From assembly GCF_045037415.1 (NCBI RefSeq), contig NZ_CP173438.1: a stretch of 64,000 bases of DNA. One strand, 5' to 3'. Of this stretch, positions 2,934 to 20,566 are shown in pieces. Below the pieces are notes generated by a model. That model searched no databases, was not told where the DNA came from, and saw nothing but the letters and a program-made list of their open reading frames with translations. Source of the DNA: Escherichia coli (lineage in GTDB: Bacteria > Pseudomonadota > Gammaproteobacteria > Enterobacterales > Enterobacteriaceae). Positions within the stretch are counted from its first letter, which is position 1. Each line of letters opens with the position of its first letter. A program made the translations under genes and the position numbers.

Positions 2934-4910
2934 ATGTCTGACGACATGTCTATGGGTTTGCCTTCGTCAGCGGGCGAACACGGTGTACTACGCTCCATGC
3001 AGGAGGTTGCAATGAGCTCCCAGGAAGCCAGCAAGATGCTGCGTACTTACAATATTGCCTGGTGGGGCAATAACTACTATGACGTTAACGAGCTGGGCCA
3101 CATCAGCGTGTGCCCGGACCCGGACGTCCCGGAAGCTCGCGTCGATCTCGCGCAGTTAGTGAAAACTCGTGAAGCACAGGGCCAGCGTCTGCCTGCACTG
3201 TTCTGTTTCCCGCAGATCCTGCAGCACCGTTTGCGTTCTATTAACGCCGCGTTCAAACGTGCGCGGGAATCCTACGGCTATAACGGCGATTACTTCCTCG
3301 TTTATCCGATCAAAGTTAACCAGCACCGCCGCGTGATTGAGTCCCTGATTCATTCGGGCGAACCGCTGGGCCTGGAAGCCGGTTCCAAAGCTGAGTTGAT
3401 GGCGGTGCTGGCACATGCTGGCATGACCCGTAGCGTCATCGTCTGCAACGGTTATAAGGACCGCGAATATATCCGTCTGGCATTAATTGGCGAGAAGATG
3501 GGCCACAAGGTCTATCTGGTCATTGAGAAGATGTCAGAAATTGCCATTGTGCTGGATGAAGCAGAACGTCTGAATGTCGTTCCTCGTCTGGGCGTGCGTG
3601 CACGTCTGGCTTCGCAGGGCTCCGGTAAATGGCAGTCCTCCGGCGGGGAAAAATCGAAGTTCGGCCTGGCGGCGACTCAGGTACTGCAACTGGTTGAAAC
3701 CCTGCGTGAAGCCGGGCGTCTCGACAGCCTGCAACTGCTGCACTTCCACCTCGGTTCGCAGATGGCGAATATTCGCGATATCGCGACAGGCGTTCGTGAA
3801 TCCGCGCGTTTCTATGTTGAGCTGCACAAGCTGGGCGTCAATATTCAGTGCTTCGACGTCGGCGGCGGTCTGGGCGTGGACTATGAAGGCACCCGTTCGC
3901 AGTCCGACTGTTCGGTGAACTACGGCCTCAATGAATACGCCAACAACATCATCTGGGCGATTGGTGATGCGTGTGAAGAAAATGGTCTGCCACATCCGAC
4001 GGTAATCACCGAATCGGGTCGTGCGGTGACTGCGCATCACACCGTGCTGGTGTCGAATATCATCGGCGTGGAACGTAACGAATACACGGTGCCGACCGCG
4101 CCTGCAGAAGACGCACCGCGCGCCCTGCAAAGCATGTGGGAAACCTGGCAGGAAATGCACGAACCGGGAACTCGCCGTTCTCTGCGTGAATGGTTACACG
4201 ACAGCCAGATGGATCTGCACGATATTCATATCGGCTACTCTTCCGGCACCTTTAGCCTGCAAGAACGCGCATGGGCTGAGCAGCTTTATTTGAGCATGTG
4301 CCATGAAGTGCAAAAGCAGCTGGATCCGCAAAACCGTGCTCATCGTCCGATTATCGACGAGCTGCAGGAACGTATGGCGGACAAAATGTACGTCAACTTC
4401 TCGCTGTTCCAGTCGATGCCGGATGCGTGGGGGATCGACCAGTTGTTCCCGGTTCTGCCGCTGGAAGGGCTGGATCAAGTGCCGGAACGCCGCGCTGTGC
4501 TGTTGGATATTACCTGTGACTCAGACGGTGCTATCGACCACTATATTGATGGTGACGGTATTGCCACGACAATGCCTATGCCGGAGTACGATCCGGAGAA
4601 TCCGCCGATGCTCGGTTTCTTTATGGTCGGCGCATATCAGGAGATCCTTGGCAACATGCACAACCTGTTCGGTGATACCGAAGCGGTTGACGTGTTCGTC
4701 TTCCCTGATGGTAGCGTAGAGGTAGAACTGTCTGACGAAGGCGATACCGTGGCGGACATGCTGCAATATGTGCAGCTCGATCCGAAAACGCTGTTAACTC
4801 AGTTCCGCGATCAGGTGAAGAAAACCGATCTTGATGCTGAACTGCAACAACAGTTCCTTGAAGAGTTCGAGGCAGGTTTGTACGGTTATACCTATCTTGA
4901 AGATGAATAA
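2934..4910 (+). CDS. speA: Biosynthetic arginine decarboxylase (PLP-dependent)
   Basis: 658-aa frame from [49 protein letters not shown]; the ORF track starts 4 codons upstream. Confidence 0.95.
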
Positions 4911-4927
4911 TTAAGATTATTCCGCTG

Positions 4928-4969
4928 GCGGGGCGATTTATTTACGTAAATCGGCCCGCTTTCTTTTTA
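4928..4969 (+). terminator. Rho-independent terminator after speA
   Basis: Hairpin gggcgatttatttacgtaaatcggccc followed by tttcttttt. Confidence 0.55.
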
Positions 4970-5055
4970 TATATTCTTAAAAATAATTTAGCTGCTTTTC
5001 TTATTAAATAATCTCCCTACAATCGCTGCATTAATTAAATGCAGAGGGAACGGTT

Positions 5056-5787
5056 ATGAAAAAATGGAAATTACGTAGCGCGTTGATAGCATTAGCCGTG
5101 CTGCTGGCCGGTTGTTCCAGTAATGCGCAGTATAATAGCAGTGCATCGGGTAATGTCGGCACCGCCTGGGGTGGGGATGTGCACTCAACGGTTCAGGGCG
5201 TATCTGCTGAACGAGCCTGGCGCGATCCGGCAGAGATGATCGTTATTAGTTATTCGACTAATGTTCCTTCCGGCTACGACCGCGTTTATAGTATTCGTAT
5301 TAACGAACTGGAATATGCTATTCGCGATGGTAATTTTAATTCTCTACCTATTACGCGGGTTTATGATTCATCCAATAATGAACCACGCTATATTGTCCAT
5401 GCCAGAATCGGAATGAATTATCAATTATATATCCGTAATTACAGTCGTAACACCAACTACGAGATCGTTGCTACGGTTGATGGCCTGGATGTGCTGAACG
5501 GCAAGCAAGGTTCGCTGAATAACAACGGTTATATTGTGAATGCCGGAGATTCGTTAGCGATTAAAGGATTCCGCAAAGATAAACATACCGAAGCGGCTTT
5601 TCAGTTCGCCAACGTTGCTGATTCCTACGCAGCCAATTCGGCGCAAGGCGATGTGCATAATACCGGTGTAATCGGCTTTGCCGCCTTTGAATTACAAGGC
5701 CCGGCGCAAAACGCGCTGCCGCCGTGCTCTGGACAAGCGTTTCCGGCAGATAACAATGGCTATGCGCCACCACCGTGTCGGAAATAG
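5056..5787 (+). CDS. Hypothetical lipoprotein (243 aa), no recognised domain
   Basis: Signal peptide with lipobox LLAG|C (MKKWKLRSALIALAVLLAGCSS); Asn/Tyr-rich; about 36% GC in the sampled coding stretch; own RBS and terminator. Confidence 0.65.
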   Translation: MKKWKLRSALIALAVLLAGCSSNAQYNSSASGNVGTAWGGDVHSTVQGVSAERAWRDPAEMIVISYSTNVPSGYDRVYSIRINELEYAIRDGNFNSLPITRVYDSSNNEPRYIVHARIGMNYQLYIRNYSRNTNYEIVATVDGLDVLNGKQGSLNNNGYIVNAGDSLAIKGFRKDKHTEAAFQFANVADSYAANSAQGDVHNTGVIGFAAFELQGPAQNALPPCSGQAFPADNNGYAPPPCRK

Positions 5788-15927: not shown

Positions 15928-16437
15928 ATGGCGACGCTGACAGAAGATGATGTGCTTGAGCAACTGAATGCACAGGACAATTTATTTTCATTTATGAAAA
16001 CTGCGCATTCTATTTTGCTCCAGGGGATACGCCAGTTTCTGCCGTCGCTGTTTGTCGATAACGATGAAGAGATCGTCGAATATGCAGTGAAGCCGTTACT
16101 CGCCCAAAGCGGCCCGCTTGACGATATTGATGTTGCGCTGCGTTTGATTTATGCGCTGGGGAAAATGGATAAATGGCTGTACGCCGATATCACGCATTTT
16201 TCCCAGTTTTGGCATTACCTGAACGAACAGGATGAAACGCCCAGATTTGCTGATGACATAACCTGGGATTTTATCAGCAACGTCAATAGCATAACCCGCA
16301 ATGCGACGCTCTATGACGCGTTGAAAGCGATGAAGTTCGCCGATTTCGCCGTCTGGTCAGAGGCGCGTTTTAGCGGGATGGTCAAAACGGCGCTGACGCT
16401 GGCAGTAACGACCACCTTAAAGGAATTAACGCCGTGA
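15928..16437 (+). CDS. yggD: MtlR-like putative transcriptional regulator
   Basis: 169 aa, MATLTEDDVLEQLNAQDNLFSFMKTAHSILLQG. Confidence 0.85.
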   Translation: MATLTEDDVLEQLNAQDNLFSFMKTAHSILLQGIRQFLPSLFVDNDEEIVEYAVKPLLAQSGPLDDIDVALRLIYALGKMDKWLYADITHFSQFWHYLNEQDETPRFADDITWDFISNVNSITRNATLYDALKAMKFADFAVWSEARFSGMVKTALTLAVTTTLKELTP

Positions 16438-17147
16438 AAATCGAACTGACGGTGAATGGACTAAAGGTACAGGCGCAGTACTCTGATGATGAAATTGAAA
16501 ATGTACATAAACCATTGCTGCGTATGCTGGCGGCCTTACAGACAGTAAATCCGCAGCGGCGTACGGTGGTTTTTCTTTGCGCTCCGCCGGGGACGGGTAA
16601 ATCTACCCTAACCACCTTCTGGGAATATCTCGCGCAACAAGACCCGGAACTGCCCGCTATTCAGACGCTGCCGATGGATGGTTTTCACCAGTACAATAGC
16701 TGGCTGGATGTGCATCAATTGCGACCCTTCAAAGGCGCACCAGAGACATTCAACGTTGCGAAACTGGCGGAAAATCTGTGCCGGGTTGTGGAAGGGGATT
16801 GTACGTGGCCGCAGTACGATCGACAAAAGCATGATCCTGTTGAAGATGTGTTGCACGTTACCGCACCACTCGTCATCGTCGAAGGAAACTGGTTGTTGTT
16901 GGACGACGAGAAGTGGTGCCAGCTTGCGCAATTTTGTGATTTCTCGATCTTTATCAAAGCTCCCGCATCTGCGTTGCGGGAGCGTCTGGTGGGGCGCAAG
17001 CTGGCGGGAGGGTTATCGCTGGCAGACGCAGAAGCCTTTTATGACCGTACCGACGGGCCGAATGTTCGCCGGGTGCTGGAAGAGAGTCTGCCTGCAAATT
17101 TGACCTTAATGATGACCGCTACGGGTGAATATCGTCTGATGGATTAA
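16434..17147 (+). CDS. yggC: P-loop kinase-like protein
   Basis: 237 aa; Walker A GTGKST; overlaps the yggD stop. Confidence 0.88.
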   Translation: MKIELTVNGLKVQAQYSDDEIENVHKPLLRMLAALQTVNPQRRTVVFLCAPPGTGKSTLTTFWEYLAQQDPELPAIQTLPMDGFHQYNSWLDVHQLRPFKGAPETFNVAKLAENLCRVVEGDCTWPQYDRQKHDPVEDVLHVTAPLVIVEGNWLLLDDEKWCQLAQFCDFSIFIKAPASALRERLVGRKLAGGLSLADAEAFYDRTDGPNVRRVLEESLPANLTLMMTATGEYRLMD

Positions 17148-17829
17148 CGTTCCTGATTACACCATCTTCCAGTCGCACCACACGAGAGAAATGACGCCGG
17201 GTAAATGCGGCGTCATGACTGATTGCTACGACGCTCGTGCCTCGCTGGCGGCACTTTTCCAGCCAGCTTTCAAACACGCTCAACCAATTTTCGTCAAAAT
17301 CCCGACTCGGCTCGTCCAGTAGCAATAGTGGCGGAGAGAGTGCTTCCAGGCAGGCGACGGCGACCATCCGTCGCTGCGCACTATGCAGATCTAACGGATG
17401 CGCGCTGGCAGTGTCTGCTAACTGACAGCATTGCAGGGCAGCATTGGTACGTTGAGTGATTTCATCCGCCGGGCATTTTTGCAGTATCAAACCAAATGCG
17501 ATTTCGTCAGCAACGGTGCTGTGAAAAAGCTGATTTTCCGCTTCCTGAAACAGTACGCCAATCTTTGCCGCGCGCTGGCGGTTTTTCAGGTTTTTCATCG
17601 CTTGTTGTTGCAGCATAACCGTACCGGCTGTGGGCGTAAGAAGACCTGCCATTACTCGTAACAGCGTCGATTTTCCCGCGCCATTGTCGCCGGTCAGCGC
17701 CAGCCATTCACCTTGTTTGAGTTGCAGAGAAATGTCGCAAAGACAATCCGTAGCCGCGCCAGGCCAGCGATAAGATATCTGATTTAACGTTAACATAGTG
17801 GCTGGAGCGCTCCGTTTTGCAATTGCCAC
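17119..17829 (-). CDS. ABC-type ATPase, second subunit (A'), with a degenerate signature motif
   Basis: Walker A GDNGAGKST; Walker B LLLLDEP; signature position reads LHSAQRRM instead of LSGGQ; H-loop ISHD. Confidence 0.8.
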   Translation of the reverse strand: MAIAKRSAPATMLTLNQISYRWPGAATDCLCDISLQLKQGEWLALTGDNGAGKSTLLRVMAGLLTPTAGTVMLQQQAMKNLKNRQRAAKIGVLFQEAENQLFHSTVADEIAFGLILQKCPADEITQRTNAALQCCQLADTASAHPLDLHSAQRRMVAVACLEALSPPLLLLDEPSRDFDENWLSVFESWLEKCRQRGTSVVAISHDAAFTRRHFSRVVRLEDGVIRNVNPSDDIHP

Positions 17830-18473
17830 GCTTGCTGGCAGTGGTTCAGGAAAGGTGTGTGATGACGTTCAAAAAGAATAATCAGCGAACCACGTTCAAG
17901 CGCCCAGTGTTGTAAGCGCTGCAACAGCATTTCGCGGGCCTGCGGCGTCAGGCGGCTAAAGGCTTCATCAAGAATTAAGAGCTTTGGCTGCATCGCGATG
18001 GCGCAGGCGATGACCACACGCTGTGTCTCTCCACCGGAGAGTGTTGCCGGGTGACGATGGCGCAACGGCTGGCACTCGGTCAGGGCCAGGGCGGCGTCAA
18101 TCCGCGCCATAATCTCTTTTTCAGCAAGACACAGATTTTCTGGCCCAAAGGCAACTTCTTCTTCCACGCTAAAGGTACAGCCGGAGAGCTGCAAATAGGG
18201 CGATTGCTGGACGAGCTGGATGGTGGCGGATTGTTCATTAAGCGGGAGACGCCCAATGGGCGTACCGAGAAGCGTCCCCGTGCCGGTTATCTCTCCTGGT
18301 AGAAAGTCCGGATACCAGCCCGCCATCAGCTGTGCCAGCGTACTTTTGCCACTGCCGTTGTCACCAAAGATGGCGACCATCCCCGGTTTGACATAGTGAA
18401 AGTCATAACAGAACGGAGGATGCGTTGAGTGTGTCGGGCAATAGCGAAACTGTTCTAACGTAACCATATCCAC
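17790..18473 (-). CDS. ABC-type ATPase (A), canonical motifs
   Basis: Walker A GDNGSGKST; signature LSGGETQR; Walker B LLILDEA; overlaps the downstream A' gene by 40 bp. Confidence 0.82.
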   Translation of the reverse strand: MDMVTLEQFRYCPTHSTHPPFCYDFHYVKPGMVAIFGDNGSGKSTLAQLMAGWYPDFLPGEITGTGTLLGTPIGRLPLNEQSATIQLVQQSPYLQLSGCTFSVEEEVAFGPENLCLAEKEIMARIDAALALTECQPLRHRHPATLSGGETQRVVIACAIAMQPKLLILDEAFSRLTPQAREMLLQRLQHWALERGSLIILFERHHTPFLNHCQQAWQLQNGALQPLC

Positions 18474-19162
18474 GCTCCGAATTCAGCCAGCATTAGCAAT
18501 ATCATGGCGTAACGTGCTACGCATTGTAGGGTGCTATCGGCTGGTGCCCATAACGTAGTGCGCCTATTGTTGATTCGAAATGCCCGCATATCCAGCGCCG
18601 CACCACGGACAGCAAGATCGTTTAGCGCATTGTGTGTTAGCGGAATAATTAACGCGGGCATCGCACGTAAACGCTGATACCAGCCCTCATCCAGCGGCAC
18701 GCCGCGGGCGCACTGCGCTTCATGAATAATCGCCAATTGCCGTTTTAACTGCTCAACGACCAATAACGGCCCGGCAAACAGATAAGCGACGCCCGGCGGC
18801 AGGCGAGAAGCAAACAAAGCGCGGATAAAACGTTGCACGGGGACGTACTGCATCCACAACTGTGAGGTTGAAACAATCGCCAGAATCCGCAACCAGAGCG
18901 TAATAGCATGCGCCCACCGTTCTGGAGAGTGTGGCGTGCCGCTTAGCCATTCTGTCAGCCAGCCACCGTGCACCAGCCACAGTCCAGCCCCCAGCGAGAA
19001 CATCAGCCAGACGACATATTTTGCCCGCCGCCGCGTGGCCTTTAGCGCAATAAGGCAGAAAAAGGTCGCCGCGCTATAGACTGGCAATATTGTCTGTGTA
19101 GGCAGGATAAGCGTGGTGCAGGCCGCCAGCGCCCACAGCGTTAAGGATGTAAAAGGATGCAT
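18455..19162 (-). CDS. ECF-transporter transmembrane T component (CbiQ/EcfT-like)
   Basis: 235-aa polytopic protein with the characteristic C-terminal A-x-x-ARG motif (AQCARGV); overlaps the ATPase gene by 19 bp. Confidence 0.65.
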   Translation of the reverse strand: MHPFTSLTLWALAACTTLILPTQTILPVYSAATFFCLIALKATRRRAKYVVWLMFSLGAGLWLVHGGWLTEWLSGTPHSPERWAHAITLWLRILAIVSTSQLWMQYVPVQRFIRALFASRLPPGVAYLFAGPLLVVEQLKRQLAIIHEAQCARGVPLDEGWYQRLRAMPALIIPLTHNALNDLAVRGAALDMRAFRINNRRTTLWAPADSTLQCVARYAMILLMLAEFGAWIWLR

Positions 19163-19741
19163 TTAGCGCACGGCAGCCATTGCCGGAAAATGGCGCGTGG
19201 TGCGAATCGGCAGCTGACGCAGTAAAAGCCAGACTATCACCGCTGTAAGAATTTTATCGACCAGGTTCGCGCCTATCACCGTAATCGCCACCGACTCCAC
19301 CAGGTTTTGCCCCATCGAGTGCATCCAGGCAACGAACAAATCGGCTCCGCTTCCTGTCACGCCGCCGAACAGCGCAGTACGCAGCGGTACAGCGACGACC
19401 GTTACCGCAAGCGTAATAATCACGCCGCTAACAACGACTTTTGGCAGGGTGCGAAACCAACCCGCTCGCGCCAGCCAACCGGCGACCAGGCCGATGACCA
19501 TCGCGACGGGCGCAAATGCGGCGGCGATCGGGTCGGTCAGCAATCCCCAGAGTAAATTGGTCAGTAAACCGGTCAGCATCCCGATTATCGGACCAAGCAG
19601 TACCGCGCTAATAAGTGTGCCGATGGAGTCGAGAAAAATAGGTAATTTAACCATGCTGGCCAGTTGCCCGCCGATCATATTGATGGCGATAGAGATAACG
19701 ATCAACACCAGTGCCTGACTGGAAAAGTGGCGACGCGCCAT
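19163..19741 (-). CDS. Small integral membrane protein, candidate ECF substrate-specific (S) component
   Basis: About 192 aa with roughly 5-6 TM helices; motifs FLDSIGT and VLLGPIIG typical of S components. Start taken at MARRHF (ATG 19741) with GAGAGG RBS; the track ORF starts further upstream at 19840. Confidence 0.6.
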   Translation of the reverse strand: MARRHFSSQALVLIVISIAINMIGGQLASMVKLPIFLDSIGTLISAVLLGPIIGMLTGLLTNLLWGLLTDPIAAAFAPVAMVIGLVAGWLARAGWFRTLPKVVVSGVIITLAVTVVAVPLRTALFGGVTGSGADLFVAWMHSMGQNLVESVAITVIGANLVDKILTAVIVWLLLRQLPIRTTRHFPAMAAVR

Positions 19742-19763
19742 AAGAAAACCTCTCTGAAAATAG

Positions 19764-20195
19764 TTATTTAACGGGGGAAATATGCAACTCGTCGTAACCA
19801 GAAAGCGCGCAAAGCTGGCGGCTAAACGCCAGTTCCTCAAGGCAGCCGATCACCAGTTCAAGCGTGGTCCGCACGGTACAGCCGGGCATCATATGACCGC
19901 CAAGCATCGTGCCGTGTGGATCGGAAACGCAGAGATGAAGATGTTCACCACTCTGTTCCAGCGTGCCGTTCAATGCGATGACTTCGAACTTACCGCTTAG
20001 CAGGGCAGTGTTTTCTTGCCCGGCATAGCGTAAGGCGACGTCAGTCAGACTGCCGGTACAACCTGCAATCCACGCGGCGTGAAGTTGTTGTTGCTGCGCG
20101 AAGGCGCGTAATTGGGAGAGAACTTCCTGCCCGGGGAGCAGGCGCAGCGCGTAAAAGCGTGCGGAGGAAGAATATGGGTAGGGCAATGTCATCAT
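19764..20195 (-). CDS. PPC/DUF296-domain protein, first gene of the cluster
   Basis: 143 aa, MMTLPYPYSSSARFYALRLLPGQEV...GKFEVIALNGTL...HLHLCVSD; 22 bp upstream of the S-component gene. Confidence 0.6.
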   Translation of the reverse strand: MMTLPYPYSSSARFYALRLLPGQEVLSQLRAFAQQQQLHAAWIAGCTGSLTDVALRYAGQENTALLSGKFEVIALNGTLEQSGEHLHLCVSDPHGTMLGGHMMPGCTVRTTLELVIGCLEELAFSRQLCALSGYDELHISPVK

Positions 20196-20429
20196 TGGAG
20201 TACTCCGAAACTCGGACGTATTGCGGATAATATCGACGCTGCATCAGTCATATTCTGATATAAGTCAGGGTTTGTGACCGCACAACGAAAAGATATTGCT
20301 ACGCTTATTCGTGATTCTGCAAAGTGGAATAAATTCCACAGGGGCGGGGATGAAAACGTGACATAAGTCAGATAATTGTCTTCTTTGACTGGACAAACAT
20401 TCCTTTTATTCCACGTTTCGCTTATCCTA

Positions 20430-20444
20430 GCTGAAGCGTTTCAG
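20430..20444. promoter_or_regulatory. Candidate Cra (FruR) operator upstream of epd
   Basis: gctgaagcgtttcag matches the Cra consensus GCTGAAnCGnTTCAG, about 120 bp upstream of the epd start. Confidence 0.5.
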
Positions 20445-20566
20445 TCGATTAAATGTTCGACAATTAACCAATCAGTCGCAGTTTGCGACAGGTAAGGTTT
20501 CCCCGAACGATTTGCTGGATTACTCTGTCTGGCAAATTTGCTCAGGGAAAACCTTGCAGGAGATCT

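What the first reader, a model, noticed from the sequence alone, without database searches (positions are those of the whole stretch)
17119..17829. Second ATPase of the cluster has a degenerate ABC signature motif
The upstream ATPase carries the canonical LSGGETQR signature. The downstream one keeps Walker A (GDNGAGKST) and Walker B (LLLLDEP) but reads LHSAQRRM at the signature position. This predicts an asymmetric heterodimer with one catalytically impaired nucleotide site, which is unusual for ECF modules, where both A subunits are normally canonical.
Basis: seen in the sequence. Interest (0 to 1): 0.3.

Follow-up and report, generated by a model that had tools for sequence, protein, structure and literature searches.

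The report
ECF transporter with one degenerate ATP site
An uncharacterised vitamin-type (ECF) importer carried by about 60% of E. coli strains has two different ATPase subunits whose sequence changes all fall on the same one of the two shared ATP pockets, so it probably burns ATP at only one site, a design well known in drug-efflux pumps but not described for this transporter class.

Summary
The second ATPase (A2, true CDS 17119-17796, minus strand) reads LHSAQRRM exactly where ABC ATPases have LSGGQ. It has no other SGG, and it keeps canonical Walker A, Q-loop, Walker B and H-loop. The variant is fixed: all full-length sequences among the 120 closest homologues (about 70-99% identity, several enterobacterial genera) keep LH[S/T/A]AQRRM.

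The partner ATPase A1 (17790-18467) has a canonical LSGGETQR but lacks the H-loop histidine. An invariant Glu-Arg (LFER) sits there in 105 orthologues. A1's P-loop side and A2's signature build the same composite ATP pocket. The heterodimer therefore has one near-consensus site and one doubly degenerate site.

Natural A1-A2 and T-A1-A2 fusions and overlapping start/stop codons support a 1:1 heterodimer.

Among 141 tandem-NBD ECF-type ATPases most similar to A2, the NBD2 signature is non-canonical in 109. The same pocket deviates in 112, and the other pocket in 14.

Impaired catalysis is inferred, not tested. The substrate is unknown.

The parts
17119..17796 (-). ATPase A2 (225 aa, WP_000956881.1), an EcfA2-like ABC ATPase with a degenerate signature
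   Evidence: PF00005 scores 96.3 bits against a cut-off of 25. The best NCBIfam hit is TIGR04521 ECF_ATPase_2, at 147 bits against a cut-off of 330.
17365..17388 (-). A2 signature position, LHSAQRRM (residues 137-144), in place of LSGGQxxR
   Evidence: Direct translation. It aligns on LSGGQKQR of ABCB1/ABCB4. LH[STA]AQRRM is kept in all full-length sequences among the 120 closest homologues.
17665..17691 (-). A2 Walker A, GDNGAGKST (Lys42), canonical
17311..17328 (-). A2 Walker B, LLLLDE (Asp161-Glu162), canonical; followed by the D-loop SRDFD
17215..17217 (-). A2 H-loop histidine (His194, in ISHD), canonical
   Evidence: invariant column.
17790..18467 (-). ATPase A1 (225 aa, WP_000256973.1), an EcfA1-like ABC ATPase. 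Its stop overlaps the A2 start.
   Evidence: PF00005 scores 77.8 bits. The best NCBIfam hit is TIGR04520 ECF_ATPase_1, at 125 bits against a cut-off of 315. RefSeq CDS.
18018..18041 (-). A1 signature, LSGGETQR, canonical
   Evidence: Direct translation. 97 of 106 aligned sequences are identical and the rest read LSGGE[SAM]Q[R/L].
17859..17873 (-). A1 H-loop position, FERHH. An invariant Glu-Arg replaces the [S/T]-His of canonical H-loops.
   Evidence: BLASTP of A1 against A2 and two MAFFT alignments put A1 Arg (R203 in ORF numbering, R201 in RefSeq numbering) on A2 His194. phmmer against pgp-1 shifts this by one residue, onto Glu. LFER is invariant in 105 orthologues, while the residues after it vary (HH, NP, RL, HR, NH, TP).
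17946..17981 (-). A1 Walker B plus D-loop, LLILDEAFSRLT. The Asp-Glu pair is kept, but the D-loop reads SRLT and lacks the usual Asp.
   Evidence: Direct translation. xLxLDEAFSRLT is invariant in 105 orthologues.
18339..18365 (-). A1 Walker A, GDNGSGKST, canonical
18455..19162 (-). EcfT-like transmembrane component (235 aa), with two Arg-Gly coupling motifs (CARGV and AVRGA)
   Evidence: RefSeq names it 'energy-coupling factor transporter transmembrane component T'. PF02361 CbiQ scores only 20.8 bits against a cut-off of 25. Sequence.
19163..19741 (-). ECF S component (192 aa), CD3073-family-like; substrate unknown
   Evidence: PF12822 scores 34.9 bits against a cut-off of 30.7. NF045596 scores 136 bits against a cut-off of 180.
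19764..20195 (-). PCC/PPC (DUF296) domain protein, first gene of the five-gene module
   Evidence: PF03479 scores 96 bits. The Salmonella orthologue has solved structures 2HX0 and 2NMU. The same gene precedes S-T-A1-A2 in L002 (Serratia) and L003.

Best explanation
A1 and A2 are the two non-identical ATPase subunits of a dedicated ECF-type importer (gene order PCC-S-T-A1-A2). They form a head-to-tail heterodimer with two unequal ATP pockets.

- Site II is built from the A2 Walker A, Q-loop, Walker B and His194 plus the A1 LSGGE signature. It is near-consensus and is the catalytic site.
- Site I is built from the A1 Walker A, Q-loop and Walker B plus the A2 signature. It is degenerate on both faces: A1 has Glu-Arg where the switch histidine should be, and A2 has LHSAQ instead of LSGGQ.

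Because the A1 P-loop, Q-loop and Walker B Asp-Glu are intact and conserved, site I most likely still binds ATP but hydrolyses it slowly or not at all. On this model it acts as a stable ATP 'hinge' that holds the dimer together, while site II turns over one ATP per cycle and drives the EcfT coupling helices and the S component. This is how the degenerate NBS1 of heterodimeric and full-length ABC exporters is thought to work.

What is shown and what is inferred:
- Shown: the motif states, their conservation, their complementary placement, and the fused homologues.
- Inferred from established NBD-dimer geometry: that both defects fall in one pocket.
- Inferred by analogy only: retained ATP binding, lost hydrolysis, and a one-ATP cycle.
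For: - A2 LHSAQRRM aligns on LSGGQKQR and is conserved in all full-length close homologues.
- In A1, LFER replaces the H-loop [S/T]H and is invariant in 105 orthologues. The A1 signature, Walker A, Q-loop and Walker B are canonical.
- Every A2 P-side motif is canonical and invariant.
- Each ATP site combines the P-side of one NBD with the signature of the other (PMC10368641; PMC7756269).
- The heterodimer is supported by the ATGTTAA start/stop overlap, by a single-chain A1-A2 homologue (P0123/L003) and by T-A1-A2 fusions (P0135, P0147), all carrying the same motif pair.
- The same polarity is seen in 141 tandem ECF-type ATPases. Site I deviates in 112 and site II in 14. The ATP-contacting Ser or second Gly of the signature is lost in 56 NBD2 and in 0 NBD1. 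Loss of the NBD1 H-loop His is associated with a degenerate NBD2 signature (Fisher p = 0.003).
- In exporters, degenerate sites keep ATP bound as a hinge.
Against: - No biochemical data exist for this system, so impaired hydrolysis is inferred from motifs alone.
- The A1 Walker B catalytic Glu is retained, whereas many classic degenerate sites lose it.
- The conserved His at signature position 2 and the Arg at the H-loop position could conceivably substitute in catalysis.
- The A1 D-loop (SRLT, no Asp) belongs to the supposedly consensus site II, so that site is not perfectly canonical either.
- In the group II model ECF transporter, both sites are needed. A one-site ECF cycle therefore has no experimental precedent.
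- The H-loop alignment of A1 is ambiguous by one residue, Glu versus Arg. No conserved His exists under either alignment.
Confidence: 0.65

Rival explanations
1. Both ATP sites are catalytically active. LHSAQ and the Glu-Arg H-loop would then be a functional re-wiring, for example with the signature His138 or the A1 Arg taking over the transition-state role of the lost histidine, and the heterodimer would still use two ATP per cycle.
For: - His (or Asn) at signature position 2 and Arg at the H-loop position are conserved rather than drifting.
- The A1 Walker A, Q-loop and Walker B Asp-Glu are all intact.
- Group II ECF modules need both sites.
Against: - Both signature glycines are replaced in E. 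coli (S-A).
- More distant subfamily members have Asn instead of His (LNSAERRM), so no single catalytic residue is conserved.
- H-loop His substitutions in other ABC ATPases are strongly inactivating. This rests on my own knowledge of MalK H192R and HlyB H662A and was not checked here.
- In other families, this complementary placement is the hallmark of non-hydrolytic sites.
Confidence: 0.15
2. Site I has lost nucleotide binding altogether. A1 would then be a purely structural partner and the module a single-site ATPase without an ATP hinge.
For: Two motifs of the pocket deviate. A1 is the less conserved match to the ECF ATPase models (125 versus 147 bits).
Against: The A1 Walker A G-x-N-G-[S/C]-G-K-S-T, the Q-loop Gln and the Walker B Asp-Glu are conserved across 105 orthologues and in the fused homologues. 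That conservation is not expected for a pocket that no longer binds nucleotide.
Confidence: 0.12
3. The deviation is mutational decay of a dispensable accessory gene, or an alignment or annotation artefact.
For: The module is absent from about 39% of complete E. coli genomes. A few truncated variants exist in the databases.
Against: - The motif is identical in pattern from Escherichia to Proteus and Serratia, and in fused metagenomic homologues at 38-58% identity.
- All other catalytic motifs of A2 are intact.
- RefSeq annotates an intact CDS.
- Three independent alignments agree on the position.
Confidence: 0.03

Closest known systems
Group II ECF modules EcfA-EcfA'-EcfT (Lactobacillus delbrueckii, L. 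brevis, Thermotoga maritima; PDB 5JSZ, 4HUQ, 4HLU and others)
   Same: - Best-scoring families for A1 and A2 are TIGR04520 and TIGR04521, and EcfA1/EcfA2 chains are among the best single-NBD PDB matches.
- Two different A subunits act with one T and an integral-membrane S component.
- The T component has two Arg-containing coupling motifs.
   Different: - Both group II sites are canonical (LSGGQ engaged in both subunits), and each Walker-B Glu is required.
- Here one site is degenerate.
- A1 and A2 are about 225 aa and lack the C-terminal extension; their matches stop at about position 217-226 of models that are 269-279 positions long.
- Scores fall far below the equivalog cut-offs.
- The module is dedicated (S-T-A1-A2 in one operon), not shared.
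Tandem (duplicated) ECF-type ATPases, 'CbiO domain 1 / domain 2' fusions encoded next to CbiQ/EcfT
   Same: - These are the nearest relatives of A2 in a search of 1.8 billion cluster representatives.
- The polarity of asymmetry matches: the NBD2 signature is degenerate in 109 of 141, while the NBD2 P-side is canonical in 140-141 of 141. NBD1 has lost the H-loop His in 37 of 141.
- The ECF gene context was confirmed for L086-L088.
   Different: - The E. coli system is split into two genes.
- Its small subfamily has its own motif set: NBD1 DEAFSR plus 'ER', and NBD2 L[H/N]xx[Q/E]RRM plus DEP[S/T]R[D/E][F/L]D.
- Most tandem relatives keep 'EH' in NBD1 and have milder changes such as LSRGQ in NBD2.
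Heterodimeric or full-length ABC exporters with a consensus and a degenerate site (TM287/288, TAP1/2, CFTR, MRP1, MsRv1273c/72c)
   Same: - Complementary deviations are split over the two NBDs and fall in one composite site.
- The degenerate site is the NBD1-P-loop / NBD2-signature site.
- The degenerate motifs are themselves conserved (PMC7756269; PMC3971661).
   Different: - The transporter class, fold and direction differ: an ECF importer with an S component, versus type I/IV exporters.
- Here the Walker B Glu of the degenerate site is retained, and the H-loop His is replaced by Arg.
LivG/LivF and UrtD/UrtE ATPase pairs of type I importers
   Same: In loci fetched here, the first ATPase has a degenerate signature (L[P/A]xG...). 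The second has a canonical LSGGEQQM but 'EQ' in place of the H-loop His. This is the same complementary logic in an importer.
   Different: They belong to a different ABC family with different membrane partners. They were only seen in passing and not analysed systematically.

Membership tests
ABC ATPase (Pfam PF00005 ABC_tran) | Score above the Pfam gathering threshold | tested here: met
   A2 scores 96.3 bits and A1 77.8 bits against a cut-off of 25.
ABC ATPase (Pfam PF00005 ABC_tran) | Canonical LSGGQ-type signature | tested here: not met
   A2 has LHSAQ at the aligned position and no SGG elsewhere. A1 meets this feature with LSGGE.
ECF transporter A component (NCBIfam equivalogs TIGR04520 / TIGR04521) | Score above the curated equivalog cut-off | tested here: not met
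   These are the best-scoring families, but A2 scores 147 bits against 330 and A1 scores 125 bits against 315. The proteins are ECF-like but not members of the group II equivalogs.
ECF transporter A component (group II EcfA/EcfA') | C-terminal helical extension after the NBD core (proteins of about 270-290 aa) | tested here: not met
   Both proteins are 225 aa. Their matches end at about model position 217-226 of 269-279.
ECF-type transporter (whole system) | An integral-membrane S component encoded with the ATPases | tested here: met
   PF12822 scores 34.9 bits against a cut-off of 30.7 for the ORF at 19163-19741. The same family lies next to the homologous ATPases in L002, L003 and L004.
ECF-type transporter (whole system) | An EcfT/CbiQ-type T component | tested here: inconclusive
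   PF02361 scores 20.8 bits, below the cut-off of 25, and there was no NCBIfam hit. RefSeq names it EcfT. Two Arg-Gly motifs are present. The T part of the fused homologue P0135 gives a weak CbiQ hit.
CD3073-family ECF S component (NF045596) | Score above the equivalog cut-off | tested here: not met
   136 bits against a cut-off of 180. This is a related protein, not an equivalog.
ABC NBD heterodimer with consensus and degenerate sites | Non-consensus signature in one NBD only | tested here: met
   A2 has LHSAQ and A1 has LSGGE.
ABC NBD heterodimer with consensus and degenerate sites | Non-consensus catalytic residue (Walker B Glu and/or H-loop His) in the partner NBD, so that both defects share one composite site | tested here: met
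   The A1 H-loop His is replaced by a conserved Glu-Arg, while the A1 Walker B Glu is retained. Co-location follows from the established head-to-tail geometry. It was not measured on a structure of this protein.
ABC NBD heterodimer with consensus and degenerate sites | ATP hydrolysis strongly impaired at the degenerate site, with binding retained | not testable with these tools
   This needs ATPase and nucleotide-occupancy assays on the purified complex.

The most novel reading that the evidence does not exclude
Many dedicated ECF-type importers, including this E. coli system and most tandem-ATPase ECF modules, may run on a single catalytic site with a permanently ATP-occupied hinge site. If so, the two-site cycle worked out for group II ECF transporters is not general. 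A sharper version is that site I here is not dead but re-engineered, with a trans-acting His in the signature loop and an Arg replacing the switch His.
Probability: 0.15. Interest if true: 0.6.

Novelty: new variant of a known kind. Interest (0 to 1): 0.4.

Why it matters
ECF transporters are being pursued as antibacterial targets. Their mechanism has been worked out on group II modules with two canonical ATP sites, both of them required.

A conserved consensus/degenerate arrangement in an E. coli ECF module, and apparently in most of its tandem-ATPase relatives, would have three consequences:
- ATP stoichiometry and NBD dynamics would differ within the class.
- The 'division of labour' seen in exporters would extend to the third type of ABC importer.
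- A genetically tractable E. coli system would become available to test what a degenerate site does when the membrane partners are already asymmetric (one T and one S).

The finding also shows that the motif-level annotation 'ABC transporter ATP-binding protein' hides a functional distinction.

Tried and rejected
- **Mis-assigned signature.** Rejected. Three independent alignments agree, and A2 contains no SGG.
- **Pseudogene or decay.** Rejected on conservation.
- **Genome-contig scan with an A2-type alignment.** It returned one close relative (Citrobacter, L006) plus unrelated ABC ATPases, so no taxonomic census was possible. The loci served only for incidental observations.
- **Riboswitch hint for the substrate.** An Rfam scan of 16000-21000 at E <= 1 found nothing meaningful. 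The promoter/terminator scans were at background level.
- **Literature.** Five full-text searches for degenerate or non-canonical sites in ECF transporters found only general or exporter reviews. The Rodionov 2009 ECF census is not held. Searches for the PCC-protein structures found no functional study.
- **AlphaFold modelling.** I considered modelling the natural A1-A2 fusion but did not run it. The tool returns no coordinates, so it could not test pocket geometry.
- **First attempt at classifying the LivG/F-like pair.** It failed on a frame error and was repeated successfully.

Full report
**What is there.** The window is E. coli chromosome, 100% identical to many sequenced strains. Between the yggC-like kinase gene (16434-17147, plus strand) and epd lies a minus-strand five-gene module:
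- a PCC/PPC (DUF296) protein (19764-20195)
- an ECF S component (19163-19741)
- an EcfT-like protein (18455-19162)
- ATPase A1 (17790-18467)
- ATPase A2 (17119-17796)

The genes abut or overlap: the S stop and T start are adjacent, T and A1 overlap by 13 nt, and A1 and A2 overlap as ATGTTAA. The module is therefore one tightly coupled operon. It is present in 3317 of 5426 complete E. coli genomes and absent from the rest, where only the flanks match.

**Checking the observation.** RefSeq and the orthologues start at ATG 17796. Otherwise the description is exact:
- Residues 137-144, encoded at 17365-17388, read LHSAQRRM.
- phmmer alignments to ABCB1/ABCB4 put these residues column for column on LSGGQKQR. 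BLASTP against A1 puts them on LSGGETQR. A MAFFT alignment of 291 NBDs agrees.
- The A2 Walker A (GDNGAGKST), Q-loop (FQEA), Walker B (LLLLDE) and H-loop (ISHD) are canonical.

The variant is fixed, not drifting. All full-length sequences among the 120 closest homologues (Escherichia, Citrobacter, Salmonella, Klebsiella, Atlantibacter, Leclercia; about 70-99% identity) have LH[S/T/A]AQRRM. Serratia and Proteus proteins at 54-58% identity and a fused metagenomic homologue at 42% identity have LHAGQRRM.

**The partner is also non-canonical, in the complementary place.** A1 has a canonical Walker A, Q-loop, LSGGETQR and Walker B Asp-Glu. Where the H-loop should read [S/T]-His, however, it reads Glu-Arg (LFERHH, 17859-17873).
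- BLASTP and two multiple alignments place the Arg on A2 His194.
- phmmer against pgp-1 shifts the alignment by one residue, onto the Glu.
- Either way there is no conserved histidine. In 105 orthologues LFER is invariant, while the following residues vary (HH, NP, RL, HR, NH, TP).

In an ATP-bound NBD dimer, each nucleotide is held by the Walker A/B, Q-loop and H-loop of one subunit and by the signature of the other (PMC10368641; PMC7756269). The A1 H-loop defect and the A2 signature defect therefore belong to the same pocket (site I). The A2 P-side together with the A1 signature forms a near-consensus pocket (site II). This is the sequence pattern that defines consensus/degenerate ABC heterodimers.

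**Evidence for a 1:1 heterodimer.**
- The start and stop codons overlap.
- Relatives occur as a single A1-A2 polypeptide in the same PCC-S-T-AA gene order (P0123/L003) and as T-A1-A2 fusions next to an S-component gene (P0135/L004, P0147).
- These relatives carry the same motif pair: NBD1 has LSGGE, DEAFSR and 'ER', and NBD2 has L[H/N]xx[Q/E]RRM and ISHD.
- A homodimer of either subunit would have no fully competent site.

**How unusual is it?** Against the characterised ECF modules it is unusual. In the L. delbrueckii group II module, both subunits engage ATP through LSGGQ. Single Walker-B E-to-Q mutants in either subunit abolish ATPase activity and transport. Reviews place degenerate sites in exporters. 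Five full-text searches found no description of one in an ECF transporter. This is absence from the held library, not proof of absence.

Against its own relatives it is not unusual. A search of 1.8 billion cluster representatives with A2 returned almost only tandem-NBD proteins. All ten of these that I tested have the ECF ATPase models as their best families. Three of four that I checked lie directly downstream of a CbiQ/EcfT gene, and one of these also has an S component. For the 141 proteins with both NBDs aligned:

| Feature | NBD1 | NBD2 |
|---|---|---|
| Signature departs from [LIFMYV]SGG[QEM] | 13 | 109 |
| ATP-contacting Ser or second Gly of the signature lost | 0 | 56 |
| At least one non-canonical Walker A, Q-loop, Walker B or H-loop | 57 | 1 |
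| H-loop His missing | 37 | 0 |

- Site I deviates in 112 of the 141 proteins, and site II in 14.
- Loss of the NBD1 His is associated with a degenerate NBD2 signature (Fisher p = 0.003).
- The polarity matches full-length human ABC proteins, where the degenerate site is always NBS1.

One caveat applies. The sample is ranked by similarity to A2, so it is not an unbiased census of ECF ATPases. The five long A-A-T fusions in the list have two canonical signatures.

**Mechanism proposed.** Site II hydrolyses ATP. Site I binds ATP, because its P-loop, Q-loop and Walker B are conserved, but turns it over slowly or not at all. It thereby acts as a hinge that keeps the NBDs engaged, by analogy with TM287/288, TAP, MRP1 and CFTR. 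ECF modules are already structurally asymmetric, with one T whose two coupling helices each contact a different A subunit, so a functional division between the sites is plausible. All catalytic statements are inference. I put 0.65 on this model, 0.15 on both sites being active through re-wiring, 0.12 on site I not binding nucleotide, and 0.03 on decay or artefact.

**Points that do not fit neatly.**
- The A1 D-loop is SRLT and lacks the usual Asp. This is invariant in 105 orthologues. By the same geometry it lies at the consensus site.
- The A1 Walker B Glu is retained.
- Both ATPases lack the C-terminal extension of EcfA/EcfA'.
- The T protein and the S component fall below, or close to, their family cut-offs.
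- A1 and A2 score far below the group II equivalog cut-offs. I therefore file the system as ECF-type by architecture, not as a member of the EcfA1/EcfA2 equivalogs.
- The substrate is unknown. No riboswitch precedes the operon. The conserved PCC-domain partner has solved structures (2HX0, 2NMU) but no assigned function.

**Verdict.** The finding is a new variant of a known kind, of moderate interest. Its value is as a testable lead on ATP stoichiometry in ECF transporters.

Noticed in passing
window 19764-20195 (-); L002 2606-3025; L003 919-1383: A PCC/PPC (DUF296) domain gene is the conserved first gene of the PCC-S-T-A1-A2 module in E. coli, Serratia and a metagenomic contig. The Salmonella orthologue has solved structures (2HX0, 2NMU, 'putative DNA-binding protein') but I found no functional study. 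It may be a cytoplasmic partner that hints at the substrate.
   Followed up: partly
window 16400-20500: The five-gene module shows presence/absence variation: it is complete in 3317 of 5426 complete E. coli genomes. In genomes without it, the adjacent yggC/fumE stretch matches at only about 89% identity, against 95-100% in carriers. This suggests two old haplotypes rather than a recent deletion.
   Followed up: partly
window 17119-17147: The 3' ends of the convergent yggC-like kinase gene (ends at 17147, plus strand) and A2 (ends at 17119, minus strand) overlap by 29 bp. RefSeq annotates both genes in this way.
   Followed up: no
window 17946-17960 (A1 D-loop, SRLT): The A1 D-loop lacks the conserved Asp (DEAFSRLT, invariant in 105 orthologues). 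By NBD-dimer geometry this loop faces the otherwise consensus site II, so it is not explained by the degenerate-site model.
   Followed up: partly
window 17119-18467: Both ATPases are only 225 aa. Their matches stop at about position 217-226 of ECF ATPase models that are 269-279 positions long, so they lack the C-terminal extension found in group II EcfA/EcfA'.
   Followed up: partly
L028, L059, L065, L066, L078, L082 (match regions around 3300-5500): LivG/UrtD-like and LivF/UrtE-like ATPase pairs of type I importers show the same complementary pattern. The first ATPase has a degenerate signature (LPYG, LAHG, LPLG, LAYG and similar). The second has LSGGEQQM but 'EQ' in place of the H-loop His. 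Family identity was checked only for L082.
   Followed up: partly
L087 169-4716: A tandem ECF ATPase with a very degenerate NBD2 signature (IPPARRRL) sits in a TGT-family gene / unknown 257-aa gene / CbiQ / ATPase cluster. This may be a queuosine-precursor ECF system. It is another example of the degenerate-site pattern.
   Followed up: no
L007 3029-4594 (Arthrobacter mangrovi): This tandem ATPase, 38% identical to A2, has NBD1 H-loop 'TQ' (His replaced by Gln) and NBD2 signature LPASGRRL. It is a named-organism example of the same asymmetry. It gave no NCBIfam hit at E <= 1e-40.
   Followed up: no
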